A stretch of DNA of 62,412 bases, counting the filler, from Stramenopiles sp. TOSAG23-6 (taxonomy: Eukaryota): NCBI GenBank assembly GCA_900128565.1. It is 18 parts of 18 records of this genome, joined end to end, with 100 filler letters (N's around TTAATTAATTAA, not from the genome) between each part and the next. Parts side by side here need not be neighbours in the genome. Positions count along the whole stretch, not along the records: positions 31,308 to 34,679 come from LT637533.1; 17 more parts are not named here. One strand, 5' to 3'. How positions within the stretch are numbered: position 1 is the first letter of the stretch; every line of letters starts with the position of its first letter. The notes under the pieces are model-generated. The model saw only the letters and a program-made list of their open reading frames with translations, was not told the origin of the DNA and did no database searches. Shown here one piece after another: positions 9,162 to 59,052 of this stretch. The position numbers and the translations under genes were made by a program.

Positions 9162-9571
9162 TCAACAACAGCCACAGCAACGCTTCGCAATTTTTGTTTC
9201 AGTAGAGCTGTCATGCCAAGTATTGTGAAAAAATATTTCAAAAAAAAAAAACTTAAAATCGTTAGGTACAAAATTATCTACGAAAAAAAAAAAAAAAAAA
9301 TCATTCAAAAAAAAACGTACAGAAAATTCCACAACAACCCATTTGTTCTGATACACTCAGCTGAATACTATTAATATTGATACTTCGGTCACAAACATGA
9401 ATTGTTGTAAAATACGTGAGAAAGTCGCTATAACGCATCCAAAAGCGACCATCATTGGAACCACCACGTTTATATCCTAACTGTCTCCTTATCTTAGGAT
9501 GCTTCTGTTTTAGTGAGGAAACAAAAATTCAAAAAAAAATCGTTAGGTACAAAATTAACTATGAAAAATTT

Positions 9572-9602
<31 letters not shown>

Positions 9603-20090: not shown

Positions 20091-20267
20091 AGCTAAGAAT
20101 TACTACTACATAGATGAAAAAAAAAAAATTATATAATATCTCAAAAAACAATAACATAGTTAGGGTTAGGGGTACGAAGAAATTGTCCACACTGAAAAAT
20201 TCAATTATTTATTTTAATACAAAATGAGAGTCTTCAAACATACTATAAAAACAAGAAAATTGGCTGT

Positions 20268-20326
20268 TATTTAAGTAATTAAATTTAGCTTCGTCGTACC
20301 CTAATCCTAACTTGGTTCTGTAATTT
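20268..20326 (-). repeat. Right arm of the 59-bp inverted repeat
   Basis: Reverse complement of 18356-18414 (57/59 identical). Confidence 0.85.
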
Positions 20327-20945: not shown

Positions 20946-23391
20946 TGGTACAAACTCAAATGATCTTCATTCAGGTGGGAGCAGCATCTGTGGAGGTGGT
21001 AGAAATAGTATAGGACAAATTATTAGTCCTTCACAAGCACAAGCGTATTTTGTTTTGCCCCATTCAGAAAGAACTGCATGTATGTTTTATTTTTTTTTTA
21101 TTTTTAAATTTTAAATTTGAAATTGAATTTTTTTTTTTTTTTTTTTTTTGAAACTAAAAAAAAAAATTTTGAAATATTTTTCCAAAATACATCAGAAAGT
21201 ATGAGTCGATCGTTTGCAGTGTCTATCCCTCATAGTTCAATAACAAGCACAACACGACGAAGTTTATATGGGTCATCATTTACTAATGTACATTTTGATC
21301 AAGAATTTATTATTATTATTTTTACAAAAAAAAAAATTCATATGAAATTTCGTACCTAACAAAAAAATTGAAAAATTGAAAAATATTTTTTTTCACAAAA
21401 CATGAATCCTCATTAAATTTTCCATCAATAATGTCTCAATCATTCGGTCATGAATTTTCTCTATCTCGGTATAATTCAACAATGTCACAAAATATTTCTA
21501 ATTCATTTAACTCTAAATCAAATATTGAATCAAGATTTGAATCAAGATTTAATTCTGTTAATTCTAAATCAAATATTGAATCAAGATTTGAATCAAGATT
21601 TGAATCAAGATTTAATTCTGCTGAATGCTCTAATCGATCAAGATCAAGTCATCACAGTGCTGCAGCTATCAAAAATGAAGAAAAAGTACAAAGAAGTAAA
21701 AAAAAAAAATTACTACCATTGTACGTTGTACAAAGAAAAATAATTTCAAACAATTTTTTTTTTTTTTTTTTACATTTTTTTTTTCGTACGAAATGTTATA
21801 CCTAAGAAATTTCAGTTTTTTTTTTCATAATATTTTCACAAAATTACATACGATCAGGAGCTCAAGAACGAATTGATTGGATTAATGCAGTTGAAGCAGC
21901 ATCAAATAGAAGAGAAACAGAAAAAAAATTATCATTTACAAAATGTGATACATTTGAAAACGAAAACCCTAACTTTACAAAATATATTGACAAAGAAGAA
22001 GAACAAAATTCTTCTACCAAGTATGATACCATTGATTCATTGAACCCTAACCCTAACCCTAACCCTAGTAAAAACAATCAAAACAATCAAAACAATCCGA
22101 CACATGACATAACAGAACAACTTTTACAATTAGCTAAATTAGATCCTTTAGAAATTTTGACACGAAATGAAAAAAAATTAATTTGGTCCAATCGAATTTC
22201 GTATAGAGGTTTGATTTGGACAACACCATCTTTATTTCATAAATTGATACGTTCAATTGATTGGATGAATGAAAATATGTACGTTTATTTTTTCTTCATT
22301 ATTGTAAAAAAATTTTTTTGTAAAAAAATTTTTTTTTTTTGTAATTTTTTTTTTTTTTTAAATTCGTAGTACATTTTCATACCTAACAAAATTGTACATT
22401 TTATTTTGGAATATTGTCTCACAAAACATTGTTAATGAAATGATGAAAGAGGTACCACCTATAGAGTACTGGTTACCCGGTTCTGGCTCTGTATCTGCAT
22501 TAGTACAATCTATTGATAAGCAATATGAGACATCAAATACAACACATTCAAACCCTAACCCTAGATACGATATAAACCCTAACCCTAGATACGATATTTT
22601 ACCAAAATATTTTCCTGTCGCTCCAATAGAAATAATAACACTTTTAGGACCTACTGTTACCCACAAAAGATTTCGTGCATATGCATTACAATGTGTCCAT
22701 CGGGTATGTTTTTTTTTATTTGGGTATGTTTTTTTTTATTTACCCTAACCCTAATAATTTAATTTTTTTTTTTTGAATTATGAAAATTTTATTAATAATT
22801 TTTTTTTATTGAAATAAATTTTTCACAATACATTTATTATGCACAACTGAAGATTTCGTGCTTTATTTACCTCAATTAGTCCAATGCTTAAAAAGTGAAA
22901 TTCCATTTGACATTAAAATTGAAACAACTAACCCTAACCCTAATGAGACGAAAAAACATGATAAAACTTTACATACAAATATTTGTAGTAAAAGTAAAAA
23001 AGTGTTTGTTCAAGATATTAAACACAAAGATGTACATACATGCAATATTGAATGTGATACAGGATTTGATTCATCGACTTCGTATGATACTGTAGTTGAA
23101 GAAGATACTACGTATTTTTTATCATCGTAACAAAAAACAACTTTTTTTTTTTTTTTTTTTTTTTTTTTGTAAATTTTGTACCTAACAAAAAAAATAAAAA
23201 CAAATTTTTGAAATATTTTTTAACAATGCATTAGACCGTTACGTTGGAGACTTTGGTCACCATTGGCTAATTATCTTTGGAAGTATGCAATAGCTAATGA
23301 AACATCCGTTGGGCTTCCTTTATATTGGGCTCTTCAAGTAGAAGAACATGTTTGTGATCATTGAAAAATTTGTACCTAACAAAAACAATTG

Positions 23392-23459
<68 letters not shown>

Positions 23460-24152
23460 ATATATTTGTACCTAACAAAACAATGTTATACTTTTGAATT
23501 ATTATCCAAAGTATATGGTGCTCAACATCCTCTTTTACATTCATTACTTACACGAATGCGGGAAACAATTTTACTAATTCAAACCCAAGAAAAAGTTTGT
23601 ACGTTTTGTGTATTTTTTTTTCAATTTTTTTTTCATACGAAATTTTGTACCTAACGATTTTTTACAAAAAAAAAAAAAAACATATTTTTTTACAATATAT
23701 GGGGCGAATCAGGTTTTTTTGCTACAATTAATCGGAAAATACAATTTGGACAAACCTGTTCTGATGTTTTGTCTTCATGTATTGATGTACATTTAGCTAT
23801 TGCTGTGGGTAAGGTCAAAAAATTAGGTAATAGTGGTCGGAAATGGCGAAATAGATATGTAGTCCTGGTACGTTTTTCAAAAAATGTGATTTTTTTTTTT
23901 TTTTAAATTTTTTTTCGTACCAAAATTTGTACCTAACAAAAAAAATTTTTAAAAAATATATTTTTTCACAATACATTTGAAAGGTCGACTTCAATATTAT
24001 ATATCAGAAACAGCAACAATGCTACAAAGAGACATGCCTTTTGATACTTTTGTCCATTATGAAAATGCTTTACAATTCTTAAATGTAGTACAAATTAATG
24101 GATCAAATTTTTATCCATTCAAAATTATTTTTAAAACAAATGATGATGACAT
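20946..24152 (+). CDS. Phosphoinositide 3-/4-kinase family protein with PH-like domains (internal fragment, 10 exons)
   Basis: Spliced frame gives ERIDWINAVE (PH C-helix), the PIK helical domain (EKKLIWSNR, RSIDW, FRAYALQCV, LYLPQLVQCLKSE, LYWALQVE), a PH motif GKVKKLG..KWRNRYVVL and the kinase N-lobe IIFKTNDDD. Confidence 0.85.
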
Positions 24153-24805: not shown

Positions 24806-27734
24806 TTTTTAAAAAAAATTTTTTTCCAAAAAAAAAAAAAAAAAAAAAAAAAAAAACAATTTTCAATGAAACAAATATTTTGACTTTTTTTTGTTTTTTT
24901 TGTTTTTTCAAATATTTTTTCACAATGTATCTAGTGATTCAATTAGGTGGTTATATTAAAAATGGTATCGATGGAATCACAGTCACTTCTAATGATGATT
25001 TTGATGATAATTTTCGTTTTCATGAAAATTCATCCTATTTAAATGATAAGAATAATGATGATTTTACTTTTGATTTTAATCATGATTTTAAACATAATGA
25101 TTATTTTAATGATTATTTTCGATTTCTTGAAAATAATAATGATTTTAATAATGATGATGATTTTAATAATGATGAATTTCGATTTGCAATAGAAAAAAAG
25201 GAAAAAATGCTTGTTCGAATAAATGGTGTTATACTATCAGCAGGAAGTTCAATTGAAAGACAAGTACAGAAAAGCGTTATACAACGATTAACAAAAAAAA
25301 AANAAGAAATTCAACAAGAAATCAAAGAACAATCAGAAGAGGGTAATGGTAATGGTGATGATGATGGTAATGATGATGGTAATGGTAATGATGATGGTCA
25401 TGGTGATGATGAAGAAGATAATGAAGATAATGAAGCTAATGATGATAATGATGATAATGATGATAATGATGAAGAAGAAGATGATAAAAAATTTCAATAT
25501 GCAATAATGACACATAATTTCCCACCAATTGGTAAAACGTATGAAAATCAATTAAAAGTGAACAAAAATGATATAATTTTCATTCTTGAAGAATATAAAA
25601 GTGGAGCTAGTGAAAGATGGAGTCTGGCAATGACAATTGATAAAGAGAAAACAGGTTATGTAGCACAATCATTTTACAACATTATAACAAAAGAAGAAGC
25701 AGACATAAAATTAGATGAGGCTAAACAAGAAAAAGCAGCAATGGTTATTCAGTCTGCTTATCGTGATCGTCAAGCAAAAGCAAAACAAAATGAAGCAGCT
25801 ATGGTTATTCAGTCTGCTTATCGTGATCGTCAAGCAAAACGAAATGAAGCAATCGCAGCTGCAGAACAAGCAGCTAATGATTCCGACACCGCTGGTGGTG
25901 GTACTGGTGGTGGTACTACAGATGGTGGTGATTCCGGTAGTACAGATGGTGCAGATGCTGGTGGTAGTACACTACCACAAAAAACAAACCAACCACAGGC
26001 ACCTGGTGATTCCGGTGATTCCGGTAGTACAGATGATACAGATGGTGATGGTGATGATGATGAAGAAGAAGATAATGATGATGAAGAAGAAGATGAAGAA
26101 GAAGAAGATGATGAAGAAGAAGATGATGATGAAGAAGAAGAAGAAGAAGAAGGAGAAGAAGGAGGAGGAGAAACTACTCCTGTAGATGATGATGTTGATG
26201 TTGCTGATTCTCCAGCAGAAGAAGGCATTGGTGATGCTGATGGTGGTGAAGAAGGTGGTGGTGAAGAAGGCAAAGAATCTGTTGGCAATGCAGTTAGAAC
26301 AGATCAAAAAAAAAAAGATGGTGTTGTAAATACAAAACGTATTCTTATTCTTGGAATGAGTTCTGGTGAGTATACACGGACACACCGACCTGATACGCCA
26401 TTACGTGAGAGTTTCAATATTCCAGCGGATCAACATATTGAAATTTATTTCATTGATGATGTNTGTTTTTTTTTTTTTTTTNAAAAAAATCGAATTTNTT
26501 TTTTGTTTTTGGTTTCATACGAAATTTTGTACCTAACAAATTTTTTTCAATTTTTTTTCAATTTTAATTTTTTTTTTTTNGTTTTTTTTTNGTAAAAAAA
26601 TTTTGTATCTAACAAATTTTTTTTTTAGTAAATTTTTAAATATTTTTTCAAAATACATGGAACAGCTTCTGGTGGAGACGGTCCAGGTAAAGTGAAAGAC
26701 AAAGCATGGTACAACGCTCGCAAGTCTGGATCTTCAGAGCCCGACACAATGGACAACAAGACAACACTTTTTGATTACATTGGCAAATTTGACAATTTAC
26801 CAAAAGATTTTACAAACAATTTCTTTGATTTCATCTTAAATGATTGGTCGACAAGCAAATTTTTTCCTCCAGGATTTGGCCTTGTCCTTCAAAACTTACT
26901 ACGACAAGGAGGCCAAATACACATGCAAGATATACTGCCAAAAGTGCCATATGGTTCAGGTCCCGGGGCGAGGTGTATGGATTCTAACCAAGAGAAGTTG
27001 CAACCTCCTAATCAATATGTCATGTTATCTCAAACGATAGGTGGTGGACCTATTTACTGCATAGTAACAAATGATACGACAGTCTGGGATTTGAAGGTTG
27101 GAGTTATAACATTAAAAAACCCTGATCAATCAGCCACCAGCTACGATTCGATTATTGATATGGCAAACAATAGCAACTTACCAAATAATACTGTGGTGAA
27201 GGATATGAAGAAGAAGGTGGGATTCATGTTTTTCCCAGGCACTCCTTTTACCGTCGGTGGAATGTCCTTTGAGGATTTTACAAAAGGTGGTGGTATGAAT
27301 CAACGAATACCTTTTGAAACATATCCATTGGCTTCTTCTCGTTTAAAAAAAGCCGGTCATGAAGCGAAAAATTATGTTCAATTTGCTGCTACTGTAGATG
27401 GTGCTGCTACTGGTGGTGCTGCTGTTGATGGTGATGCTGCTGGTAAGAATCCAGCAAAACCAAATGCAGCTGCAGAACAAGCAGCTAATGATTCCGACAC
27501 TGCTGGTGGTGGTGGTGGTGGTGATGCCGGTGATGCCGGTGGTGGTGCTGGGCCTGCTGGTGATGGGTCTGCTGGTGCTTCTCCAGCAGTAGAAGAAGAA
27601 GAAGAAGAAGATGCTGGTGATGGTGATGGTGATGCTCCTCCAGCAGTAGAAGAAGAAGAAGAAGAAGAAGATGCTGGTGATGGTGATGGTGATGGTGATG
27701 CTCCTCCAGCAGTAGAAGAAGAAGAAGAAGAAGA
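24543..27734 (+). CDS. SH3 + IQ-motif protein with long acidic low-complexity regions (partial; introns 24729-24930, 26461-26658)
   Basis: SH3 (AIMTHNF..ENQLKVNKNDIIFIL..WSLA..KTGYVAQSF), two IQ motifs (AAMVIQSAYR) and D/E/G-rich tracts. Both introns are AT|GT...AT and phase-consistent. Confidence 0.75.
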
Positions 27735-31141: not shown

Positions 31142-31314
31142 GTATGTTTTATTTTTTTTTTTTTACAAAAAAATCGATTTTTTTTTCATACGAAATTTTG
31201 TACCTAANNNNNNNNNNNNNNNNNNNNNNNNNNNNNNNNNNNNNNNNNNNNTTAATTAATTAANNNNNNNNNNNNNNNNNNNNNNNNNNNNNNNNNNNNN
31301 NNNNNNNCAATATT

Positions 31315-31347
<33 letters not shown>

Positions 31348-31352
31348 GGGGA

Positions 31353-31407
<55 letters not shown>

Positions 31408-31422
31408 TTTTGCAATACCTAC

Positions 31423-34400
31423 ACATTCCCTTAATAGCTCACACGCATCTGCAGATAAACAAGAAGGAGGTATCGGAGGCGCGACTTTTTCCGATGCAAT
31501 ATGAAACATTGCAGTGATTGGATTTTCAAATTTCTTTTCATGCCATGGATGTATTTTGGAAAAATATTTCAAATTATTTTTTGTTAGGTACAAACTTTTT
31601 ATAAAAAAAACATTCATACAAAAAAAAAATAAAAAAACATACATTCTTTCCCGTTGCCATTTCAATTACAGTGCATGTATTGTGAAAAAAAAAATGTATG
31701 AAAAAAAAACGTTAGGTATGAAATATATTACAAAAACAAAAATTGCAAAAAAAAATTGGAAAGAAAAAAACCTACATGTAATGTAGAAAAANTATTTTTT
31801 TTTNTAAAATTCGTTAGGTACAAAATTTCGTACGAAAAGCAAATTTAAAATTGAAAAAAAAAGAAACCTACATCCAACACTCCAAATATCAGCTTTAGGC
31901 CAATCAACATGCACGTCAATTTCATGATTAAGATGTTTAAATACTTTCATTCCAGCAGTTGGAGATCTTGGACCTGGATTTATTTGCTGTTTTAAAGAGG
32001 CCGAACCCATCCGAATGACCTCTGGAGCCATCCATAATGGTGTCCCTAAAGGAAATTCAATTTGACCTGGTAAACCAAAACTTTCATTTTTACCAATTTC
32101 GAATTTATTTTTGAAACCAAAATTTTCATTTTGATTTTTTGATGTATTTTTTACATGACTGATAGAATGATCATTTTTGTAATGTATTGAAGAATTTTTA
32201 CGGAAACTTGAATATTTCCTTCGTTTTGGTGTCAATTCTTTTAAAGATTTACTTGCCTGTAGTATACGAAGAATATTAATTTTTTTTTGTTAGGTATGAA
32301 ATTTTTACACGAAAAAAATAAAAAAAAATAAATTTAAATTTAAATTTAAATTTAAAAAAAAAAATGGAATACAAAACATACACCAAAATCAGCAAGCTTT
32401 ATGATACCTCTATTACTAATTAATATATTAGCACCTTTTACATCTCGATGTGCTATACCATGATTATGTAAATATTGCAAACCTTTAATGATTTGTCTTG
32501 TGTAGCATTTTAATGCCTTTTCTGGCAAACCTGTAGGAAATTTTTTCAGTAAATCATGAACAGAGCCTCCTGGTAAATATTCCATAAAAATACGCAACGC
32601 CCATCCACAGGTAAGAGAACCATGAGTCATTGGGCTTGGCGTCCGAGTCCAATCTAAACCCTTTCGTGGAATTGATGTNTTGNGAANATATATATATANA
32701 NTTTNTNTTGGTAAATAAAACTCGTTTGGTACATGATGTACTACAAAAATAAACAATACGTTGAAAAAATATATATATAGGAGAATACACCTACATGGAC
32801 TTCTAATACGTTGTAATTGTGACGGCATTACTCCTCCTGGTAAAGGTTGTCGCTCTGTAGCAAAATAGTGCACAATATTCTCATTGGATAAAGCACGCAT
32901 TAATGAAATTTCATCTTGAAGAGTTACCAATTCGCCAGGTCTTGCTAAAGCGGCATCTAGGGATGTGACTTCTATCGGAGGTAACTCAACTTCTTTCATA
33001 GCCATAACTTGTCCATTATCGAGATTTGTTACAACAAAGACTCTACCATATTGACCTTGACCAATACATTTGCCGCGTCTCCAACGGAAAGGTGCTGGTT
33101 GAACCCATGACTTTTCATGTGGACTCAAATGCCGTTTCGGTGGTGTGATGACGCGAAAATTATTATCTTCTTTCAGAATTTCTGTACTCATTAAACCTTC
33201 TGTTGAATCAATATCTTCACTATCATCAGACACGACAACTTTACGAAAAAAATTTGAAATTAATTTACGTTTCATTGTCTTTCTTCTCCATCGAGGTGTT
33301 GTCCATAAAACTGATAATTCTTTAAGATCATCTTGAGTAGATAAATCTATTTGTTCAACAACTGCACTTTGTACTAAAAATTTATCTGGTTTAGCATTTA
33401 TGTCTTCTCTGTCTAGTAATTGTCTAACTTCTTGTTTTCGTATAATAAATTGAACATCTGTCCATTTACCTGGTTTTATAAGACCCATGTATTTTGGAAA
33501 AATATTTTGAAAAAAAAAAATTGAAAAATTTGTTAGGTACAAAATTTCGTACGAAAAAAAAATTTGAATTTCAAATTTAAAAAAAAAAAAANATACATTG
33601 CTGGTCTAACTAAATATCGATCTGGTTGTGTTGTTTTTATCTTAAATGCCACGGATTCTAAGGGTAGTGAATTTTCTAATAAAAGCTGACCAAGTGCACT
33701 TTGTGCTGTGTCTAAAGCAAAATCTATTTCATCTCTTGGTGTGCATCGTAATCTGTACTTTGGGAAAATATTTTAAAAAAAAAAGTGTTTGTTTAAGCAA
33801 AATNTTTTTTTTTTTTAATATATATATATAGCAAAACAATCAAAAATAAATGATGAAATAAAAACATACGCTTTTCTATGACGCATATCGATGACAGCAC
33901 TATTTGTTTTCTTTGAACGAATTCCATGGCGATTATTTTCACGTAATTTTTTATTACTTTGTGTACATATTTTNTGAAAAAATATTTTTTTTTTTTTTTN
34001 TAAAATTTGTTATTTTTGTTAGGTACGAAATTTCGTATGAAAAAAAAATTGAAAAAAATTGGAAAAAATTGATAAAAAATTGAAAAAAAAAACATACCAC
34101 TTTGTTTTTGAATAGTCATTTGTAAAGAAGCAACAGAACTGTTACCAGGAAATGAAGGTAATGACTTACCAGGTGAAAAAATATTTGTGTTTTTCGTGTA
34201 TGGAGATCCAATAGGCGTACCATAAGGAGTTAAAGGTTGAATTTTAAATTTATTTGGCATTGGACAATTTTGTGAAAAATATTTCATTTTTTTTAGGGTT
34301 AGTGGTTTAGTGGGTTAGGGTTAGGATTTGGAAAAAAAAAATGAAATTCATTAGGGTTAGGGTTAACACATACGATCCTCTTGGCGTACTATAAGGACTA

Positions 34401-34679
34401 ATACTATCATTCATATTTTCAATTTGAATGTGACGAATTTTCTTACGACTTTTCATATCTAATAAAGACACATTTTCTAGTACTTTTTTGTTAGGGTTAG
34501 GGCTAGGGTTAGGGTCTGTTGTATTCGGTGTAGGATTTGTTGTATTTTTTATTCTTGAAAGAAGTTTTTCAATTCCTTTACGAAACTTTTTTTTTGTTTT
34601 TGTATTTTTAAGATTCATTACATTATCAACATTATCAACATTATCAACATTATCAACATTATCAACATTTTTATCATCA
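31423..34679 (-). CDS. MSP(VAP)-domain STE11/MEKK-like Ser/Thr kinase (partial, multi-exon), copy 1
   Basis: MSP signature VAFKIKTTQPDRYLVRPAMGLIKPG; kinase motifs GQGQYGRV, MAMKEV, HRDVKGAN, DFGAS, GTPLWMAPE and DIWSVGCTVIEMATG after splicing. Confidence 0.9.
31675..31871 (-). other. Two abutting GT-AT intron units (31871-31776, 31775-31675) with no exon between them
   Basis: GGA T|GTAGGT..TACCTAAC..TTACAT|GTAGGT..TACCTAAC..AATACAT|GC ACT restores DIWSVGCTVIEM. Confidence 0.82.
33487..33596 (-). other. Non-canonical intron GT-AT within the MSP domain
   Basis: GCA AT|GTATGT...AAAATACAT|G GGT restores YLVRPAMGLI (compare VAP YCVRPNSGII). Confidence 0.85.
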
Positions 34680-34786
34680 NNNNNNNNNNNNNNNNNNNNN
34701 NNNNNNNNNNNNNNNNNNNNNNNTTAATTAATTAANNNNNNNNNNNNNNNNNNNNNNNNNNNNNNNNNNNNNNNNNNNNCAATATT

Positions 34787-34879: not shown

Positions 34880-34894
34880 TTTTGCAATACCTAC

Positions 34895-37800
34895 ACATTC
34901 CCTTAATAGCTCACACGCATCTGCAGATAAACAAGAAGGAGGTATCGGAGGCGCGACTTTTTCCGATGCAATATGAAACATTGCAGTGATTGGATTTTCA
35001 AATTTCTTTTCATGCCATGGATGTATTTTGGAAAAATATTTCAAATTATTTTTTGTTAGGTACAAACTTTTTATAAAAAAAACATTCATACAAAAAAAAA
35101 ATAAAAAAACATACATTCTTTCCCGTTGCCATTTCAATTACAGTGCATGTATTGTGAAAAAAAAAATGTATGAAAAAAAAACGTTAGGTATGAAATATAT
35201 TACAAAAACAAAAATTGCAAAAAAAAATTGGAAAGAAAAAAACCTACATGTAATGTAGAAAAAATATTTTTTTTTNTAAAATTCGTTAGGTACAAAATTT
35301 CGTACGAAAAGCAAATTTAAAATTGAAAAAAAAAGAAACCTACATCCAACACTCCAAATATCAGCTTTAGGCCAATCAACATGCACGTCAATTTCATGAT
35401 TAAGATGTTTAAATACTTTCATTCCAGCAGTTGGAGATCTTGGACCTGGATTTATTTGCTGTTTTAAAGAGGCCGAACCCATCCGAATGACCTCTGGAGC
35501 CATCCATAATGGTGTCCCTAAAGGAAATTCAATTTGACCTGGTAAACCAAAACTTTCATTTTTACCAATTTCGAATTTATTTTTGAAACCAAAATTTTCA
35601 TTTTGATTTTTTGATGTATTTTTTACATGACTGATAGAATGATCATTTTTGTAATGTATTGAAGAATTTTTACGGAAACTTGAATATTTCCTTCGTTTTG
35701 GTGTCAATTCTTTTAAAGATTTACTTGCCTGTAGTATACGAAGAATATTAATTTTTTTTTGTTAGGTATGAAATTTTTACACGAAAAAAATAAAAAAAAA
35801 TAAATTTAAATTTAAATTTAAATTTAAAAAAAAAAATGGAATACAAAACATACACCAAAATCAGCAAGCTTTATGATACCTCTATTACTAATTAATATAT
35901 TAGCACCTTTTACATCTCGATGTGCTATACCATGATTATGTAAATATTGCAAACCTTTAATGATTTGTCTTGTGTAGCATTTTAATGCCTTTTCTGGCAA
36001 ACCTGTAGGAAATTTTTTCAGTAAATCATGAACAGAGCCTCCTGGTAAATATTCCATAAAAATACGCAACGCCCATCCACAGGTAAGAGAACCATGAGTC
36101 ATTGGGCTTGGCGTCCGAGTCCAATCTAAACCCTTTCGTGGAATTGATGTNTTGNGAANATATATATATANANTTTNTNTTGGTAAATAAAACTCGTTTG
36201 GTACATGATGTACTACAAAAATAAACAATACGTTGAAAAAATATATATATAGGAGAATACACCTACATGGACTTCTAATACGTTGTAATTGTGACGGCAT
36301 TACTCCTCCTGGTAAAGGTTGTCGCTCTGTAGCAAAATAGTGCACAATATTCTCATTGGATAAAGCACGCATTAATGAAATTTCATCTTGAAGAGTTACC
36401 AATTCGCCAGGTCTTGCTAAAGCGGCATCTAGGGATGTGACTTCTATCGGAGGTAACTCAACTTCTTTCATAGCCATAACTTGTCCATTATCGAGATTTG
36501 TTACAACAAAGACTCTACCATATTGACCTTGACCAATACATTTGCCGCGTCTCCAACGGAAAGGTGCTGGTTGAACCCATGACTTTTCATGTGGACTCAA
36601 ATGCCGTTTCGGTGGTGTGATGACGCGAAAATTATTATCTTCTTTCAGAATTTCTGTACTCATTAAACCTTCTGTTGAATCAATATCTTCACTATCATCA
36701 GACACGACAACTTTACGAAAAAAATTTGAAATTAATTTACGTTTCATTGTCTTTCTTCTCCATCGAGGTGTTGTCCATAAAACTGATAATTCTTTAAGAT
36801 CATCTTGAGTAGATAAATCTATTTGTTCAACAACTGCACTTTGTACTAAAAATTTATCTGGTTTAGCATTTATGTCTTCTCTGTCTAGTAATTGTCTAAC
36901 TTCTTGTTTTCGTATAATAAATTGAACATCTGTCCATTTACCTGGTTTTATAAGACCCATGTATTTTGGAAAAATATTTTGAAAAAAAAAAATTGAAAAA
37001 TTTGTTAGGTACAAAATTTCGTACGAAAAAAAAATTTGAATTTCAAATTTAAAAAAAAAAAAACATACATTGCTGGTCTAACTAAATATCGATCTGGTTG
37101 TGTTGTTTTTATCTTAAATGCCACGGATTCTAAGGGTAGTGAATTTTCTAATAAAAGCTGACCAAGTGCACTTTGTGCTGTGTCTAAAGCAAAATCTATT
37201 TCATCTCTTGGTGTGCATCGTAATCTGTACTTTGGGAAAATATTTTAAAAAAAAAAGTGTTTGTTTAAGCAAAATGTTTTTTTTTTTTAATATATATATA
37301 TAGCAAAACAATCAAAAATAAATGATGAAATAAAAACATACGCTTTTCTATGACGCATATCGATGACAGCACTATTTGTTTTCTTTGAACGAATTCCATG
37401 GCGATTATTTTCACGTAATTTTTTATTACTTTGTGTACATATTTTGTGAAAAAATATTTTTTTTTTTTTTTNTAAAATTTGTTATTTTTGTTAGGTACGA
37501 AATTTCGTATGAAAAAAAAATTGAAAAAAATTGGAAAAAATTGATAAAAAATTGAAAAAAAAAACATACCACTTTGTTTTTGAATAGTCATTTGTAAAGA
37601 AGCAACAGAACTGTTACCAGGAAATGAAGGTAATGACTTACCAGGTGAAAAAATATTTGTGTTTTTCGTGTATGGAGATCCAATAGGCGTACCATAAGGA
37701 GTTAAAGGTTGAATTTTAAATTTATTTGGCATTGGACAATTTTGTGAAAAATATTTCATTTTTTTTAGGGTTAGTGGTTTAGTGGGTTAGGGTTAGGATT

Positions 37801-38366: not shown

Positions 38367-41300
38367 ACATTCCCTTAATAGCTCACACGCATCTGCAGAT
38401 AAACAAGAAGGAGGTATCGGAGGCGCGACTTTTTCCGATGCAATATGAAACATTGCAGTGATTGGATTTTCAAATTTCTTTTCATGCCATGGATGTATTT
38501 TGGAAAAATATTTCAAATTATTTTTTGTTAGGTACAAACTTTTTATAAAAAAAACATTCATACAAAAAAAAAATAAAAAAACATACATTCTTTCCCGTTG
38601 CCATTTCAATTACAGTGCATGTATTGTGAAAAAAAAAATGTATGAAAAAAAAACGTTAGGTATGAAATATATTACAAAAACAAAAATTGCAAAAAAAAAT
38701 TGGAAAGAAAAAAACCTACATGTAATGTAGAAAAANTATTTTTTTTTNTAAAATTCGTTAGGTACAAAATTTCGTACGAAAAGCAAATTTAAAATTGAAA
38801 AAAAAAGAAACCTACATCCAACACTCCAAATATCAGCTTTAGGCCAATCAACATGCACGTCAATTTCATGATTAAGATGTTTAAATACTTTCATTCCAGC
38901 AGTTGGAGATCTTGGACCTGGATTTATTTGCTGTTTTAAAGAGGCCGAACCCATCCGAATGACCTCTGGAGCCATCCATAATGGTGTCCCTAAAGGAAAT
39001 TCAATTTGACCTGGTAAACCAAAACTTTCATTTTTACCAATTTCGAATTTATTTTTGAAACCAAAATTTTCATTTTGATTTTTTGATGTATTTTTTACAT
39101 GACTGATAGAATGATCATTTTTGTAATGTATTGAAGAATTTTTACGGAAACTTGAATATTTCCTTCGTTTTGGTGTCAATTCTTTTAAAGATTTACTTGC
39201 CTGTAGTATACGAAGAATATTAATTTTTTTTTGTTAGGTATGAAATTTTTACACGAAAAAAATAAAAAAAAATAAATTTAAATTTAAATTTAAATTTAAA
39301 AAAAAAAATGGAATACAAAACATACACCAAAATCAGCAAGCTTTATGATACCTCTATTACTAATTAATATATTAGCACCTTTTACATCTCGATGTGCTAT
39401 ACCATGATTATGTAAATATTGCAAACCTTTAATGATTTGTCTTGTGTAGCATTTTAATGCCTTTTCTGGCAAACCTGTAGGAAATTTTTTCAGTAAATCA
39501 TGAACAGAGCCTCCTGGTAAATATTCCATAAAAATACGCAACGCCCATCCACAGGTAAGAGAACCATGAGTCATTGGGCTTGGCGTCCGAGTCCAATCTA
39601 AACCCTTTCGTGGAATTGATGTNTTGNGAANATATATATATANANTTTNTNTTGGTAAATAAAACTCGTTTGGTACATGATGTACTACAAAAATAAACAA
39701 TACGTTGAAAAAATATATATATAGGAGAATACACCTACATGGACTTCTAATACGTTGTAATTGTGACGGCATTACTCCTCCTGGTAAAGGTTGTCGCTCT
39801 GTAGCAAAATAGTGCACAATATTCTCATTGGATAAAGCACGCATTAATGAAATTTCATCTTGAAGAGTTACCAATTCGCCAGGTCTTGCTAAAGCGGCAT
39901 CTAGGGATGTGACTTCTATCGGAGGTAACTCAACTTCTTTCATAGCCATAACTTGTCCATTATCGAGATTTGTTACAACAAAGACTCTACCATATTGACC
40001 TTGACCAATACATTTGCCGCGTCTCCAACGGAAAGGTGCTGGTTGAACCCATGACTTTTCATGTGGACTCAAATGCCGTTTCGGTGGTGTGATGACGCGA
40101 AAATTATTATCTTCTTTCAGAATTTCTGTACTCATTAAACCTTCTGTTGAATCAATATCTTCACTATCATCAGACACGACAACTTTACGAAAAAAATTTG
40201 AAATTAATTTACGTTTCATTGTCTTTCTTCTCCATCGAGGTGTTGTCCATAAAACTGATAATTCTTTAAGATCATCTTGAGTAGATAAATCTATTTGTTC
40301 AACAACTGCACTTTGTACTAAAAATTTATCTGGTTTAGCATTTATGTCTTCTCTGTCTAGTAATTGTCTAACTTCTTGTTTTCGTATAATAAATTGAACA
40401 TCTGTCCATTTACCTGGTTTTATAAGACCCATGTATTTTGGAAAAATATTTTGAAAAAAAAAAATTGAAAAATTTGTTAGGTACAAAATTTCGTACGAAA
40501 AAAAAATTTGAATTTCAAATTTAAAAAAAAAAAAANATACATTGCTGGTCTAACTAAATATCGATCTGGTTGTGTTGTTTTTATCTTAAATGCCACGGAT
40601 TCTAAGGGTAGTGAATTTTCTAATAAAAGCTGACCAAGTGCACTTTGTGCTGTGTCTAAAGCAAAATCTATTTCATCTCTTGGTGTGCATCGTAATCTGT
40701 ACTTTGGGAAAATATTTTAAAAAAAAAAGTGTTTGTTTAAGCAAAATNTTTTTTTTTTTTAATATATATATATAGCAAAACAATCAAAAATAAATGATGA
40801 AATAAAAACATACGCTTTTCTATGACGCATATCGATGACAGCACTATTTGTTTTCTTTGAACGAATTCCATGGCGATTATTTTCACGTAATTTTTTATTA
40901 CTTTGTGTACATATTTTNTGAAAAAATATTTTTTTTTTTTTTTNTAAAATTTGTTATTTTTGTTAGGTACGAAATTTCGTATGAAAAAAAAATTGAAAAA
41001 AATTGGAAAAAATTGATAAAAAATTGAAAAAAAAAACATACCACTTTGTTTTTGAATAGTCATTTGTAAAGAAGCAACAGAACTGTTACCAGGAAATGAA
41101 GGTAATGACTTACCAGGTGAAAAAATATTTGTGTTTTTCGTGTATGGAGATCCAATAGGCGTACCATAAGGAGTTAAAGGTTGAATTTTAAATTTATTTG
41201 GCATTGGACAATTTTGTGAAAAATATTTCATTTTTTTTAGGGTTAGTGGTTTAGTGGGTTAGGGTTAGGATTTGGAAAAAAAAAATGAAATTCATTAGGG

Positions 41301-41838: not shown

Positions 41839-44800
41839 ACATTCCCTTAATAGCTCACACGCATCTGCAGATAAACAAGAAGGAGGTATCGGAGGCGCGA
41901 CTTTTTCCGATGCAATATGAAACATTGCAGTGATTGGATTTTCAAATTTCTTTTCATGCCATGGATGTATTTTGGAAAAATATTTCAAATTATTTTTTGT
42001 TAGGTACAAACTTTTTATAAAAAAAACATTCATACAAAAAAAAAATAAAAAAACATACATTCTTTCCCGTTGCCATTTCAATTACAGTGCATGTATTGTG
42101 AAAAAAAAAATGTATGAAAAAAAAACGTTAGGTATGAAATATATTACAAAAACAAAAATTGCAAAAAAAAATTGGAAAGAAAAAAACCTACATGTAATGT
42201 AGAAAAANTATTTTTTTTTNTAAAATTCGTTAGGTACAAAATTTCGTACGAAAAGCAAATTTAAAATTGAAAAAAAAAGAAACCTACATCCAACACTCCA
42301 AATATCAGCTTTAGGCCAATCAACATGCACGTCAATTTCATGATTAAGATGTTTAAATACTTTCATTCCAGCAGTTGGAGATCTTGGACCTGGATTTATT
42401 TGCTGTTTTAAAGAGGCCGAACCCATCCGAATGACCTCTGGAGCCATCCATAATGGTGTCCCTAAAGGAAATTCAATTTGACCTGGTAAACCAAAACTTT
42501 CATTTTTACCAATTTCGAATTTATTTTTGAAACCAAAATTTTCATTTTGATTTTTTGATGTATTTTTTACATGACTGATAGAATGATCATTTTTGTAATG
42601 TATTGAAGAATTTTTACGGAAACTTGAATATTTCCTTCGTTTTGGTGTCAATTCTTTTAAAGATTTACTTGCCTGTAGTATACGAAGAATATTAATTTTT
42701 TTTTGTTAGGTATGAAATTTTTACACGAAAAAAATAAAAAAAAATAAATTTAAATTTAAATTTAAATTTAAAAAAAAAAATGGAATACAAAACATACACC
42801 AAAATCAGCAAGCTTTATGATACCTCTATTACTAATTAATATATTAGCACCTTTTACATCTCGATGTGCTATACCATGATTATGTAAATATTGCAAACCT
42901 TTAATGATTTGTCTTGTGTAGCATTTTAATGCCTTTTCTGGCAAACCTGTAGGAAATTTTTTCAGTAAATCATGAACAGAGCCTCCTGGTAAATATTCCA
43001 TAAAAATACGCAACGCCCATCCACAGGTAAGAGAACCATGAGTCATTGGGCTTGGCGTCCGAGTCCAATCTAAACCCTTTCGTGGAATTGATGTNTTGNG
43101 AANATATATATATANANTTTNTNTTGGTAAATAAAACTCGTTTGGTACATGATGTACTACAAAAATAAACAATACGTTGAAAAAATATATATATAGGAGA
43201 ATACACCTACATGGACTTCTAATACGTTGTAATTGTGACGGCATTACTCCTCCTGGTAAAGGTTGTCGCTCTGTAGCAAAATAGTGCACAATATTCTCAT
43301 TGGATAAAGCACGCATTAATGAAATTTCATCTTGAAGAGTTACCAATTCGCCAGGTCTTGCTAAAGCGGCATCTAGGGATGTGACTTCTATCGGAGGTAA
43401 CTCAACTTCTTTCATAGCCATAACTTGTCCATTATCGAGATTTGTTACAACAAAGACTCTACCATATTGACCTTGACCAATACATTTGCCGCGTCTCCAA
43501 CGGAAAGGTGCTGGTTGAACCCATGACTTTTCATGTGGACTCAAATGCCGTTTCGGTGGTGTGATGACGCGAAAATTATTATCTTCTTTCAGAATTTCTG
43601 TACTCATTAAACCTTCTGTTGAATCAATATCTTCACTATCATCAGACACGACAACTTTACGAAAAAAATTTGAAATTAATTTACGTTTCATTGTCTTTCT
43701 TCTCCATCGAGGTGTTGTCCATAAAACTGATAATTCTTTAAGATCATCTTGAGTAGATAAATCTATTTGTTCAACAACTGCACTTTGTACTAAAAATTTA
43801 TCTGGTTTAGCATTTATGTCTTCTCTGTCTAGTAATTGTCTAACTTCTTGTTTTCGTATAATAAATTGAACATCTGTCCATTTACCTGGTTTTATAAGAC
43901 CCATGTATTTTGGAAAAATATTTTGAAAAAAAAAAATTGAAAAATTTGTTAGGTACAAAATTTCGTACGAAAAAAAAATTTGAATTTCAAATTTAAAAAA
44001 AAAAAAANATACATTGCTGGTCTAACTAAATATCGATCTGGTTGTGTTGTTTTTATCTTAAATGCCACGGATTCTAAGGGTAGTGAATTTTCTAATAAAA
44101 GCTGACCAAGTGCACTTTGTGCTGTGTCTAAAGCAAAATCTATTTCATCTCTTGGTGTGCATCGTAATCTGTACTTTGGGAAAATATTTTAAAAAAAAAA
44201 GTGTTTGTTTAAGCAAAATNTTTTTTTTTTTTAATATATATATATAGCAAAACAATCAAAAATAAATGATGAAATAAAAACATACGCTTTTCTATGACGC
44301 ATATCGATGACAGCACTATTTGTTTTCTTTGAACGAATTCCATGGCGATTATTTTCACGTAATTTTTTATTACTTTGTGTACATATTTTNTGAAAAAATA
44401 TTTTTTTTTTTTTTTNTAAAATTTGTTATTTTTGTTAGGTACGAAATTTCGTATGAAAAAAAAATTGAAAAAAATTGGAAAAAATTGATAAAAAATTGAA
44501 AAAAAAAACATACCACTTTGTTTTTGAATAGTCATTTGTAAAGAAGCAACAGAACTGTTACCAGGAAATGAAGGTAATGACTTACCAGGTGAAAAAATAT
44601 TTGTGTTTTTCGTGTATGGAGATCCAATAGGCGTACCATAAGGAGTTAAAGGTTGAATTTTAAATTTATTTGGCATTGGACAATTTTGTGAAAAATATTT
44701 CATTTTTTTTAGGGTTAGTGGTTTAGTGGGTTAGGGTTAGGATTTGGAAAAAAAAAATGAAATTCATTAGGGTTAGGGTTAACACATACGATCCTCTTGG

Positions 44801-45195: not shown

Positions 45196-46494
45196 ATGGT
45201 CGTTAATGTCTTTCCAAATATTGTNAAAAAATATTTTTTTTTTTTGGTTAAAAAAAACAAAAAAAACGTTAGGTACAACATTTGGTACGAAAAAATGTAG
45301 GTAAAACATTCAATTTTGAAAATGTACAAGTCCCATCTCATCGGCTAAGATGGCACCTTGCCCCATATATTCTTTTACACCGCTCAGACATTCCCAAAGA
45401 AATTGAACATATTGTAAAAAAATATTTCAAAAATTAAAATTTTGTTAGGTACAAAATTTTATACGAAAAAAAAAATATTTCAAAAAAAAAATTAAAATTT
45501 TCTTAGGTACAAAATTTCATACGAAAAAAACAATTCGAAATTGAAAAGAAAACATACACACCTTCTATTTGATGTTGTTGTAAAATGTTTGATAGCCGAT
45601 ATTCAAGAATTGCACATTTTCCATTTTTCTCAAATAATTTACCTTTTGAGGGCGTGTAATTTGCTTTTGTACAATGAATGCTTCCTAGTCCTGGATTTCT
45701 ATTNATATTGTTTTTTCTTTTGTGTGGTGTTGTGACACTGGTGTCTGTAGTTGCGAGAGTGTGAGAAAGTACAAAAAAATCGTTAGGTACAAAGTTTCGT
45801 ACGAAAAATAAAAACATAAATTGAAAAAAAAAATAAATTGCGAAATTCATGATGAAAGTGTACTTTTGTTAGGAAATGGATTTTGAAACTTGCGATTAAA
45901 ATTAGATGTGTTTTTAATTTTCCCCACATTATTGTTATGAGAAGTATTCACATAATTTCCAATAAAAAACTTGCCACTGTTGAACTCTTCATCGGGTACT
46001 TGTCGAACGACTTCGGTTTCCCAATTTCCAACACCTAGAGTTTCACCTTCTTTCATTAGTTGAAATTTGAAACGAGTGACGGCCACACTTTTCCCATTCA
46101 TATTCCGCAGTTCAGCACGATTCTTTGAATTCAAAATAAGAACACCGTCCATGTATGTCTTATGCTTCTTTTTAGAATATTTACAGTACAATACCTCATA
46201 GTATTTCTTGACAACTGGAGCACTAGTAATCTTGTTTATTGTACCATTTGATTTAGTCATACTCGGCGGAACAAATTTGCTTCGCTTTCTACTCACACGT
46301 TTTAATATTGTCTTGGNTTCAGAAANAATTGTAGTGTGAGTGGTTTTCGTGTTGGTACTTCTATTTTCTTTCGAGCAAGCTGTAGAAGATACATTTTTAG
46401 NTGCTTGTACAACATTTGGATTTGAAANTCTTGGTGCCTGAAATGTACTTCGTGATCTACCAAAGCGGCGTCTTTTTAGACCAGATGGATTCAT
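45196..46494 (-). CDS. RAD54B: RAD54B-like SNF2 DNA translocase, N-terminal part (exons 46494-45864, 45744-45558, 45406-45328, 45215-45196)
   Basis: N-terminal KKKHKTYMDGVLIL motif; splicing restores LQQHQIEGVQFLWEC and SNF2 motif I GAILADEMGLGKTL. Exon phases 1/2/0 are mutually consistent. Confidence 0.8.
45216..45327 (-). other. Non-canonical intron GT-TT inside the SNF2 Walker A motif
   Basis: CTT|GTACAT...TACCTAAC...ACAATATTT|GGA AAG restores DEMGL|GKT. Confidence 0.88.
45407..45557 (-). other. Non-canonical intron GT-GT (equivalently GT-AT if slid 2 nt)
   Basis: GGT GT|GTATGT...ACAATATGT|T CAA restores HQIEGVQFLW. Confidence 0.8.
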
Positions 46495-58952: not shown

Positions 58953-59052
58953 NNNNNNNNNNNNNNNNNNNNNNNNNNNNNNNNNNNNNNNNNNNNTTAA
59001 TTAATTAANNNNNNNNNNNNNNNNNNNNNNNNNNNNNNNNNNNNNNNNNNNN

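What the first reader, a model, noticed from the sequence alone, without database searches (positions are those of the whole stretch)
31675..31871. Two complete intron units back-to-back with a zero-length exon in kinase subdomain IX
Seen: between GGA T and GC ACT (G-C-T of DIWSVGCTVIEM) lie two units of 96 and 101 nt. Each has its own GTAGGT donor, TACCTAAC and TACAT end, meeting at TTACAT|GTAGGT. Their bodies differ, so this is not a simple assembly duplication. Inference: either recursive (ratchet-point) splicing at a non-AG site, or a second element inserted at the AT duplication of the first (AT-unit-AT-unit-AT), as the TSD model predicts.
Basis: partly seen in the sequence, partly recalled or inferred. 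Interest (0 to 1): 0.8.

Follow-up and report, generated by a model that had tools for sequence, protein, structure and literature searches.

The report
Two transposon-like introns side by side
Two copies of a mobile, intron-forming DNA element sit directly next to each other inside a kinase gene of a marine eukaryote, and both must be cut out exactly, at ends that lack the usual AG signal, to restore the protein.

Summary
On the minus strand, 31871..31776 (96 nt) and 31775..31675 (101 nt) are two complete members of one intron family: NN|GTAYGT, T-rich stretch, TACCTAAC core, ...CACAATAC tail, then NN|exon. They abut with no exon base between them, inside codon Cys of DIWSVG|CTVIEM.

Joining the flanking exons gives an open 649-aa frame. 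It aligns without a gap across this site to a homologue, P0003. Removing only one unit gives an early stop.

The family behaves like an introner, a transposon that becomes an intron:
- 28 cores lie in about 45 kb of unique sequence.
- Contigs break at the core.
- In 13 of 23 units the 2 nt before GT equal the last 2 nt of the intron; shuffles give 5.4, P about 1e-5.
- The 3' end is AT in 12, AG in 5 and other in 6 of 23, always 2 nt after the tail.

The two units are no more alike (0.68) than family background. I therefore favour two insertions at one AT site over a local duplication.

Recursive splicing is possible from the sequence but untested: the RNA-library contigs I could see were unspliced. 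With this intron density, a tandem pair is roughly what chance allows.

The parts
31872..32256 (-). Exon C of a MAP3K-like kinase (DFG|ASK... to ...DIWSVG, last base T is the first base of the Cys codon)
   Evidence: Boundaries by motif positions. Weak Pkinase match at profile positions 142-173. Aligned to P0003.
31776..31871 (-). Unit 1, 96 nt: donor GTAGGT 31871-31866, core TACCTAAC 31820-31813, tail TACATTAC 31785-31778, terminal AT 31777-31776
   Evidence: Identity 0.79 to the leave-one-out family consensus. Nearest relative is the unit at 10691-10782, 0.82.
31675..31775 (-). Unit 2, 101 nt: donor GTAGGT 31775-31770, core TACCTAAC 31718-31711, tail CACAATAC 31684-31677, terminal AT 31676-31675
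   Evidence: Identity 0.70 to the family consensus.
31776..31777 (-). The single AT between the units (the zero-length exon lies after it). The other two AT copies are 31873-31872 (end of exon C) and 31676-31675 (end of unit 2).
   Evidence: Read from the sequence and tabulated.
31643..31674 (-). Exon D, 32 nt, (C)TVIEMATGKN
   Evidence: Gapless alignment to CTLIEMASGEM of P0003.
31549..31642 (-). Next family intron, 94 nt, AT|GTATGT...CAAAATAC AT|
   Evidence: Its junction is verified against P0003.
31423..31548 (-). Exon E (PWHEKKFENPITAMFHIAS...), followed at 31422 by a further GTAGGT intron that runs off the contig
32382..32674 (-). Exon B, kinase core (HRD...DFG)
   Evidence: Pkinase E 1.9e-21, profile positions 73-143. 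Used as query.
32795..33486 (-). Exon A (MSP-like N-terminal part and kinase subdomains I-IV)
   Evidence: Pkinase profile positions 3-66. Aligned to P0003.
32257..32381 (-). Family intron with an AG end (GTATGT...TACCTAAC...TACAG)
   Evidence: DFG|ASK junction verified.
32675..32794 (-). Family intron, AT|GTAGGT...AT|, with a decayed core (TACCAAAC)
33487..33596 (-). Family intron, AT|GTATNT...CAAAATAC AT|
35147..35343 (-). The same two units in the second copy of the contig. Further copies lie at 38619-38815 and 42091-42287. These are not independent.

Best explanation
The 197 bases are two separate copies of one short, non-autonomous, intron-forming mobile element (an introner-type family of about 95-130 nt). 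Both were inserted at the same AT dinucleotide of the kinase gene. The result is AT-unit1-AT-unit2-AT with no exon base between the units.

Each unit brings its own donor (GTAGGT), its own branch-site core (TACCTAAC) and its own 3' tail. In this family the cut at the 3' end falls 2 nt after the tail, on the duplicated target dinucleotide. That dinucleotide is usually AT, not AG.

Shown: both units are full family members; the family carries locus-specific 2-nt duplications; exactly these 197 nt must go to restore a conserved kinase sequence.

Inferred: removal is by the spliceosome at the RNA level. My committed reading is that each unit is recognised as an intron of normal family size. They are then removed in two steps, unit 1 probably first as it is transcribed first. 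This is a recursive splice at a non-AG zero-length exon. One-step removal from donor 1 to the end of unit 2 would serve as a working alternative. All routes give the same mRNA.

I put about 0.75 on the double-insertion origin, about 0.85 on precise RNA-level removal, and only about 0.5 on two-step removal being the main route.
For: Family membership:
- Both units align over their whole length with 13 other units.
- Identity to the consensus is 0.79 and 0.70.

Mobile-element character:
- 28 TACCTAAC cores lie in unique contigs, against about 1 expected for the whole window (tally mine).
- Several contig ends lie in or next to the conserved core stretch just upstream of TACCTAAC, e.g. at 13829, 20887 and 31207.
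- In a seawater DNA run the summed depth of the core bin is 110867, against about 6 over unique exon sequence. This is rough and is not a copy number.
- All 23 curated units are in the sense orientation of their flanking reading frames.

Target-site duplication:
- 13 of 23 units have the 2 nt before GT equal to the last 2 nt of the intron. Shuffles give a mean of 5.39, with about 1 shuffle in 100000 reaching 13.
- Four of these matches are not AT: AA, TT, GT and AG.

Precise removal:
- Eight joined exons give an open 649-aa frame with 52.9% identity over 682 columns to P0003. The alignment is gapless at 6 of 7 junctions, including WSVG|CTVIEM and GKN|PWHEKKF.
- Unspliced, or with only one unit removed, the frame stops at aa 196, 164 or 193.

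Non-AG ends are real:
- A Rad54-like exon ends ...ILADEMGL, aligned to 1z3i_X residues 65-90.
- The next exon starts GKT, after an intron that ends TT.

Position of the 3' cut:
- It lies 2 nt after the tail in 10 of 12 units's automatic frame pick.
- An eleventh, the 34097 unit, fits by my re-reading, which one search's open frame supports.

The cut is at GT, not 2 nt upstream:
- The AG-type family intron 33869..33753 has flank GC, and P0003 keeps the Ala that only the GT cut encodes.

Independent insertions rather than duplication:
- Unit 1 against unit 2 is 0.68, within family background of 0.62 +/- 0.065.
- Unit 1 is closer to a unit in another contig, at 0.82.
Against: - No spliced RNA was seen. 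The three informative RNA-library contigs are unspliced: X8 record 18, X7 record 16 and X8 record 24. They may be pre-mRNA or DNA carried into the libraries.
- GTAGGT donors occur only in this gene: 31871, 31775 and 32794, plus GTGTAGGT at 31422. This clustering fits local copying or duplication as well as it fits independent arrival.
- Ten of 23 units lack matching flank dinucleotides, so the duplication is often decayed or the model is incomplete.
- Unit 1's tail (TACATTAC) departs from the consensus at two of eight positions. One of these departures is seen in no other curated unit. This would fit a tail that is no longer used, i.e. one-step removal.
- Four other introns hold two cores but one donor and one tail. 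Inner signals can therefore be dispensable.
- The terminal inverted repeat is only GTA...TAC, and no autonomous element was found.
Confidence: 0.7

Rival explanations
1. One functional intron of 197 nt. The pair is removed in a single step from the donor of unit 1 to the end of unit 2. The inner tail, the inner donor and one branch site are passengers that will decay.
For: - Introns of 149-198 nt with two cores but a single donor and tail exist in the window: 9505-9653, 23350-23516, 26461-26658 and 45407-45557.
- Unit 1's tail is the least consensus-like part of the pair.
- The mRNA product is identical, so nothing selects for the inner signals.
Against: - Both TACCTAAC cores and the inner GTAGGT donor are intact.
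- Each unit has the normal family length of 92-132 nt for single-core units.
- Short-intron systems usually pair a donor with the nearest branch site and 3' end. This is general knowledge, not tested here.
Confidence: 0.4
2. Local tandem duplication. A single inserted unit with its flanking AT was duplicated by slippage or unequal exchange, and the copies then diverged.
For: - The AT-unit-AT-unit-AT layout is also what duplication between the two AT copies would give.
- Both units share the GTAGGT donor, which among 23 curated units occurs only in this gene.
- The intron 45407-45557 shows a clear internal duplication of core plus spacer.
Against: - Unit 1 against unit 2 identity is 0.68, no higher than unrelated family pairs. 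Unit 1 is closer, at 0.82, to a unit in another contig.
- Lengths differ (96 against 101 nt).
- The regions upstream of the core are unlike.
- The units stand at different distances from the consensus, 0.79 against 0.70.
Confidence: 0.15
3. Not RNA introns. The units are cut out of the DNA, as with ciliate eliminated sequences, or the gene is a dead copy riddled with insertions.
For: - Only unspliced forms were seen in RNA libraries.
- The flanking direct repeats recall precise DNA excision.
Against: - The units carry a conserved spliceosomal donor and a CTAAC branch motif.
- Five of 23 end in AG at the same position.
- All are in the sense orientation.
- The exons are otherwise intact over 649 aa with 53% identity to a homologue. 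This is not expected for a dead gene.
- The boundary repeats are AT and others, not TA.
Confidence: 0.05
4. Assembly artefact that chained two alleles or two loci.
For: - The assembly is fragmented.
- It breaks at the family core.
- It holds duplicate contigs and ambiguous bases.
Against: - The only sequence shared by the two unit starts is ATGTAGGTTT, which is too short to mislead an assembler.
- A contig from a different study covers unit 2, the junction and 18 nt of unit 1's own tail. That is under the tool's 31-letter bridging rule.
Confidence: 0.03

Closest known systems
Introner elements that carry the 5' splice site and take the 3' splice site from the target-site duplication (Chrysochromulina family; Micromonas pusilla IE1). 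Passages read in PMC9860276 and PMC11282704. Huff et al. 2016 is recalled, not read.
   Same: - A short multi-copy element sits in many genes in sense orientation.
- It carries its own donor.
- The last intron bases are one copy of the duplicated target.
- Removal restores the uninterrupted coding sequence.
   Different: - The duplication here is 2 nt and mostly AT, so most copies end in AT, TT, AA, GG and so on rather than AG.
- The described families have duplications of 3-9 bp that supply AG.
- No clear inverted repeat is present.
- I found no mention of tandem copies in the passages read: 'tandem' occurs 0 times in PMC9860276, PMC12130899 and PMC11282704.
- Supplementary tables of introner families could not be opened, so this family may be listed there.
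Recursive splicing at ratchet points, i.e. zero-nucleotide exons, in Drosophila and vertebrate long introns (recalled, not read)
   Same: - A 3' splice site is directly followed by a donor.
- After the first step the upstream exon is joined to a regenerated donor. Here that is again ATGTAGGT.
   Different: - Known ratchet points are YAG|GTRAGT inside very long introns.
- Here the site is ACAT|GTAGGT between two 100-nt units of transposon origin.
- No intermediate has been seen.
Stwintrons, the spliceosomal twin introns of fungi (search listing and abstract starts of PMC9024468, PMC12403724, PMC8469720)
   Same: - Two introns occupy one intron position.
- Consecutive splicing reactions are needed or possible.
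- Sequence-similar copies spread within a genome.
   Different: - In a stwintron the inner intron interrupts a splice signal of the outer one, so the order is forced.
- Here the units lie side by side, every signal is whole, and any order or a single step works.
Non-canonical introns of Fritillaria borealis with divergent U2AF paralogues (abstract of PMC13326754)
   Same: - A spliceosome has to accept 3' ends that are not AG on a genomic scale.
- A transposon origin is suspected.
   Different: - There about 95% of introns escape GT/AG at both ends.
- Here the donor is a good GTAYGT and only the last two bases vary.
- U2AF could not be examined here.
Nonconventional introns of euglenids and diplonemids (abstract and passages of PMC12621601; passages of PMC6221363)
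   Same: - Non-canonical borders.
- Short direct repeats at the junctions.
- A suspected MITE origin.
   Different: - Those lack a U1-type donor, and their ends pair in a stable structure.
- Here the donor is conserved.
- No consensus structure is predicted: 0 pairs, and z-scores from -1.44 to +0.82 for 8 units.

Membership tests
Introner (transposon-derived spliceosomal intron family) | Many sequence-similar introns in unrelated genes | tested here: met
   28 cores lie in unique contigs (tally mine). 15 units were aligned, with 0.57-0.84 identity to the consensus. Hosts include a kinase, a Rad54-like helicase and DUF4116-type repeat genes, as read from the ORFs.
Introner (transposon-derived spliceosomal intron family) | Each copy sits at an intron position and its exact removal restores the coding sequence | tested here: met
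   6 of 7 kinase junctions are gapless against P0003; the seventh lies in an insertion. The Rad54-like Walker A junction is also verified.
Introner (transposon-derived spliceosomal intron family) | Footprint of transposition: target-site duplication and/or terminal inverted repeats | tested here: met
   The 2-nt duplication is present in 13 of 23 units against 5.39 by shuffling, P about 1e-5. The inverted repeat is only GTA...TAC, which is inconclusive.
Introner (transposon-derived spliceosomal intron family) | Presence/absence differences between strains or orthologues | not testable with these tools
Introner (transposon-derived spliceosomal intron family) | Spliced out of RNA | tested here: inconclusive
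   Only contigs were available. Those shown are unspliced, and 48 further joints were not listed.
Recursive splice site (zero-length exon) | 3' splice site directly followed by a donor that is regenerated after the first step | tested here: met
   The junction reads TTACAT|GTAGGT. Exon C end plus the unit 2 donor gives the same ATGTAGGT as before.
Recursive splice site (zero-length exon) | AG at the ratchet point | tested here: not met
   The site ends in AT.
Recursive splice site (zero-length exon) | Intermediates or separate lariats in RNA | tested here: inconclusive
   No intermediate appears among the pieces listed. Raw reads were not on offer.
Stwintron | Inner intron interrupts donor, branch site or acceptor of the outer intron | tested here: not met
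   Both donors, both cores and both tails are whole and in series.
U12-type (AT-AC) intron | Donor RTATCCTT and a TCCTTAAC branch site close to the 3' end (features recalled) | tested here: not met
   The donors are GTATGT, GTACGT and GTAGGT. The core end lies 31-50 nt from the tail end, i.e. 33-52 nt from the 3' end.
Euglenozoan nonconventional intron | No conserved donor; intron ends paired in a stable structure | tested here: not met
   GT occupies the first two bases in 23 of 23 units. No consensus pairs are predicted. Folds are no better than shuffles.
Ciliate-type eliminated sequence | TA-bounded, removed from DNA, absent from expressed-genome DNA | tested here: not met
   The boundary repeats are AT, AG, AA, TT and GT. 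The units are part of the assembled DNA contig. The metagenome depth over them sums other family copies, so it is not direct evidence. DNA-level removal itself was not tested.

The most novel reading that the evidence does not exclude
In this organism the 3' splice site is not read as AG at all. It is measured as a fixed 2-nt step beyond a tail motif that the transposon itself carries (...TTTTTYCACAATAC), so an element can become a working intron at any target dinucleotide. The tandem pair is then a natural non-AG ratchet point, spliced recursively. It would be the first case in which a mobile element supplies its own ruler for the second step of splicing.
Probability: 0.3. Interest if true: 0.85.

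Novelty: new variant of a known kind. Interest (0 to 1): 0.6.

Why it matters
Introners are the best current explanation for bursts of intron gain. The described families still depend on GT/AG, often by borrowing AG from the duplicated target. Here homology shows working introns whose last two bases are simply whatever the target was: AT in 12, AG in 5 and other in 6 of 23 units.

If RNA data confirm this, the organism would show how far 3' splice-site choice can be detached from AG while the donor and branch site stay ordinary.

The tandem pair is a compact natural substrate for three questions:
- Are two abutting units removed one by one or together?
- Which signals of the inner boundary are used?
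- Does re-insertion at the duplicated target drive intron growth? The two-core introns in the same window look like later stages of that process.

The pair itself is not a rarity that demands a special mechanism. With 155 AT sites in five exons and 5-10 units per gene, I estimate 0.13-0.58 such pairs per gene under random reuse of flanking AT sites (rough, ignores selection).

Tried and rejected
RNA evidence:
- Read laying on the twin copy 34892-36150 gave no spliced joint among the 15 joints shown.
- All 15 link the core region of one unit to that of another (for example 35045 to 35278) with sides of 18-30 letters. They occur in the DNA run too, so I read them as cross-matches of other family copies.
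- 48 joints were not shown.
- No RNA contig covered exon B, and X9 covered no unique exon sequence.
- None of this says anything about splicing.
- The caps of the look-up of sequencing runs and read laying are spent.

Whole genome and earlier notes:
- No genome is held for the window.

Public DNA collections:
- A gapped tandem pattern did not complete four times.
- The simpler junction pattern returned 120 loci. None of them has a family core beside the match, so they are chance hits and the single metagenome scan was wasted.
- The 22-nt core found nothing in viral contigs or genome contigs.

Protein searches:
- Exon C found nothing in either the longer or the near length class.
- An exon of the contig-6 gene found nothing. 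That search was meant to test cut positions at two mismatched-flank introns.
- PDB searches with exon C and exon E found nothing.
- Pfam found nothing for two exons I read as a PH domain, so I dropped that argument.
- The protein atlas gave only generic kinase clusters and no taxon.

Other:
- Rfam found no family in the window.
- RNA structure bringing the ends together is rejected.
- The pair itself could not be folded because of N.
- Reading the introns as AT...AC, with cuts 2 nt upstream at both ends, gives the same mRNA wherever the flanks match. I consider it less likely because of the AG-type intron 33869..33753, but it is not excluded for the AT type.
- Lineage of the organism: not established. 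I make no claim beyond this: exact pieces of the gene occur in a seawater DNA run (X4 records 7 and 8, 0 other letters).
Full report
WHAT THE WINDOW IS. The 62412 bases are not one stretch of chromosome. They are 18 contigs of 3384 to 3360 bp, sorted by length and joined by 100-nt linkers (N44-TTAATTAATTAA-N44). The contig with the finding (31308-34679) is present four times and differs only at four N/base positions. The four copies of the tandem (31675-31871, 35147-35343, 38619-38815, 42091-42287) are therefore one observation. No whole genome is held.

THE OBSERVATION. The gene is on the minus strand.
- Exon C ends ...GAT ATT TGG AGT GTT GGA T at 31872.
- Unit 1 runs 31871..31776 (96 nt) and unit 2 runs 31775..31675 (101 nt).
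- Exon D starts GC ACT GTA ATT GAA ATG at 31674.
- Each unit starts with GTAGGT, holds an exact TACCTAAC (31820-31813 and 31718-31711) and ends in ACAT. The junction reads TTACAT|GTAGGT.
- AT stands before, between and at the end of the units.
- TACCTAAC occurs 49 times in the window against 1.25 expected; by my tally of that list 28 are in unique contigs.
- ATGTAGGT occurs 15 times against 1.38.

THE UNITS ARE INTRONS THAT MUST BOTH BE REMOVED.
- Exon B matches Pkinase (E 1.9e-21, profile positions 73-143). Exon A matches positions 3-66.
- A search of 1.84 billion representatives with exon B found P0003 (2399 aa, 71% identical over the exon). Its only record is source eukprot, name g3140.t1.
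- Joining eight exons by coordinates gives an open 649-aa frame. It aligns to P0003 residues 479-1120 at 52.9% identity over 682 columns.
- Across the finding the alignment is gapless: VDWPKADIWSVG|CTVIEMATGKN|PWHEKKFENPITAMFHIAS against VDWDKADIWSVGCTLIEMASGEMPWHDKKFENPISAMFHIAS.
- Three further kinases show the same continuity.
- Left unspliced, the frame stops at aa 196. With only unit 1 removed it stops at aa 164, and with only unit 2 removed at aa 193.
- No AG lies at or near either 3' end. The next AG after unit 2 is 29 nt into exon D (read).

THE FAMILY. Fifteen units from seven contigs align end to end.
- The layout is GTAYG, a T-rich stretch, TTTCGTACGAAATTTTGTACCTAAC, a spacer, (GAA)ATATTTTTTCACAATAC, then two more bases before the exon.
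- Units 1 and 2 are 0.79 and 0.70 identical to the leave-one-out consensus. The family range is 0.57-0.84.
- Several contig ends lie in or next to the conserved stretch just upstream of TACCTAAC, as expected for a high-copy repeat.
- In a seawater DNA run the bin holding the core collects a summed depth of 110867, against about 6 on unique exon sequence. In two RNA libraries the core figure is about 19000. These figures sum all copies and possibly other organisms, so they are only a rough sign of very high copy number.
- The kinase contig alone holds ten family introns in 3.4 kb.
- All 23 curated units lie in the sense orientation of their flanking frames.

WHERE THE 3' CUT LIES.
- Reading frames on both sides require the intron to end exactly 2 nt after the 8-nt tail in 10 of 12 units's automatic frame pick.
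- An eleventh, the 34097 unit, fits by my re-reading, which one search's open frame supports. One unit (9320..9218) does not fit.
- The last two bases are AT in 12, AG in 5, TT in 2, and GG, AA, TG and GT once each, of 23.
- Two non-AT cases are backed by homology.
- First, a Rad54-like exon (45405..45328) aligns to 1z3i_X residues 65-90 and ends ...ILADEMGL (E 0.028). The next exon begins GKT. The intron between them (45327..45216) ends TT after flank TT.
- Second, the AG-type family intron 33869..33753 has flank GC. P0003 keeps the Ala (RHRKA|L) that only a cut at GT encodes, not a cut 2 nt upstream.
- I therefore read these introns as GT...NN rather than NN...AC, at roughly 3 to 1. For the AT type the two readings give the same mRNA and only lariat data can decide.

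TARGET-SITE DUPLICATION.
- In 13 of 23 units the two bases before GT equal the last two bases of the intron.
- Shuffling the 3' dinucleotides among units gives a mean of 5.39, and about 1 shuffle in 100000 reaches 13.
- Nine matches are AT/AT. Four are AA, TT, GT and AG, which shows that the match is locus-specific and not only a shared liking for AT.
- Ten units do not match. They include four of the five AG-enders. Either the flanks have changed since insertion or the model is incomplete.
- The only inverted repeat is GTA...TAC.
- No RNA structure links the ends: 0 consensus pairs, and z-scores from -1.44 to +0.82 for eight units.

ORIGIN OF THE PAIR.
- The layout AT-unit-AT-unit-AT is what a second insertion into one of the duplicated AT copies gives.
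- The units are 0.68 identical, inside the family background of 0.62 +/- 0.065. Unit 1 is closer (0.82) to the unit at 10691-10782 in another contig.
- Unit 2 is further from the consensus than unit 1. This fits unit 2 as the older resident and unit 1 as the later arrival at the upstream AT, but that order is only suggested.
- Against fully independent arrival: GTAGGT donors occur in this gene only (31871, 31775, 32794, and GTGTAGGT at 31422), against none in the other 20 curated units. This points to local copying within the gene.
- A plain tandem duplication followed by divergence remains possible. I give it 0.15.
- An assembly artefact is unlikely. The two unit starts share only 10 nt. A 153-nt contig from another study covers exon D, unit 2, the junction and 18 nt of unit 1's own tail (X8 record 18), although 18 letters are under the tool's bridging rule.

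IS IT MORE THAN CHANCE?
- As a sequence pattern, yes.
- As an event, not clearly. Exons A-E hold 155 AT sites. With 5-10 units per gene, random reuse of the two AT copies flanking an earlier unit predicts 0.13-0.58 pairs per gene (rough, ignores selection).
- Every inserted unit also creates an AT|G site at its own 5' side. AT|G is the commoner context among the reconstructed empty sites: by my reading, 6 of the 9 AT/AT units have G as the next base, counting the two tandem units separately.
- Four other introns in unique contigs hold two cores but one donor and one tail. They may be older stages or internal duplications.

HOW IT IS PROCESSED.
- Nothing was shown at the RNA level. The RNA-library contigs I could see are unspliced: X8 record 18 (31644-31793), X7 record 16 (31848-32113) and X8 record 24 (31855-32038). 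DNA may be present in such libraries.
- The 15 joints shown link the core of one unit to that of another with short sides. They occur in the DNA run too, so I take them for cross-matches between family copies.
- From the sequence, three routes give the same mRNA: unit 1 then unit 2, unit 2 then unit 1, or both at once.
- After removal of unit 1 the donor context is again ATGTAGGT, so the site qualifies as a zero-length exon.
- I commit to two-step removal as the main route, because each unit has the full signal set and the normal family size. I hold this at about 0.5. The slightly decayed tail of unit 1 and the two-core introns speak for the one-step route.

COMPARISON WITH KNOWN SYSTEMS.
- Closest are introners that carry the donor and take the 3' site from the duplicated target (passages of PMC9860276 and PMC11282704). 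This family differs in its 2-nt, mostly AT duplication, and hence its non-AG ends.
- It is not U12-type, not a stwintron, not a euglenozoan nonconventional intron and not a Fritillaria-type intron (see the membership rows).
- My literature searches and the passages read showed no description of GT...AT introners or of tandem introners.
- Supplementary tables were closed and one relevant paper was not held. Prior description therefore cannot be excluded.

VERDICT. It is best read as two insertions of an introner-type element at one AT site. The pair is of moderate interest in itself. The larger point is the family's 3' ends, which are fixed by position and not by AG.

Noticed in passing
whole window; linkers e.g. 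31208-31307, 34680-34779: The window is an artificial chain of 18 contigs sorted by length, with N44-TTAATTAATTAA-N44 linkers. Contigs at 31308, 34780, 38252 and 41724 are the same sequence. So are those at 45196 and 48662, which differ by one N.
   Followed up: yes
55593-58952 versus 59053-62412: Two contigs are identical except for a block (57392-57998) with 146 differences. They could be two alleles, two paralogues or alternative assembly paths. They are GC-richer (0.39) and hold no family core.
   Followed up: partly
45216-45327 (-): A family intron ending in TT splits the Walker A motif of a Rad54-like helicase (ILADEMGL|GKT). It is the clearest homology-backed case of an intron that is neither AG- nor AT-ended.
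   Followed up: yes
31871, 31775, 32794, 31422 (-): GTAGGT donors occur only in this kinase gene. The other 20 curated units use GTATGT, GTACGT and similar. This suggests copying of introns within one gene.
   Followed up: partly
9505-9653 (-), 23350-23516 (+), 26461-26658 (+), 45407-45557 (-): These introns have two TACCTAAC-type cores but one donor and one tail. The last shows a clear internal duplication of core plus spacer. They may be decayed tandems.
   Followed up: partly
34293-34364 (-) and 34490-34514 (-): Telomere-like CCCTAA repeats lie inside a family intron and inside coding sequence, where they encode PNPSPNPN. Similar NPNPNP runs occur in the ORF 21806-22369.
   Followed up: no
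3485-6866, 17411-20786, 55593-62412: Contigs with GC 0.38-0.42 carry long uninterrupted ORFs (ankyrin-like repeats, as read from the ORFs; a 477-aa ORF) and no family core. The AT-rich contigs are full of family cores. These may be different genome compartments or different organisms in one assembly.
   Followed up: no
32256-31872 (-): The kinase has an insertion of about 60 residues in the activation segment, between DFG-ASK and GTPLWMAPE. It is also present, but different in sequence, in the homologue P0003.
   Followed up: no
35270-35311 (copy of 31798-31839): The bin with the family core collects a summed contig depth of about 1.1e5 in a seawater DNA run and about 1.9e4 in two RNA libraries, against about 6 on unique exon sequence. 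The element is very abundant wherever this organism, or relatives carrying the family, occur.
   Followed up: partly
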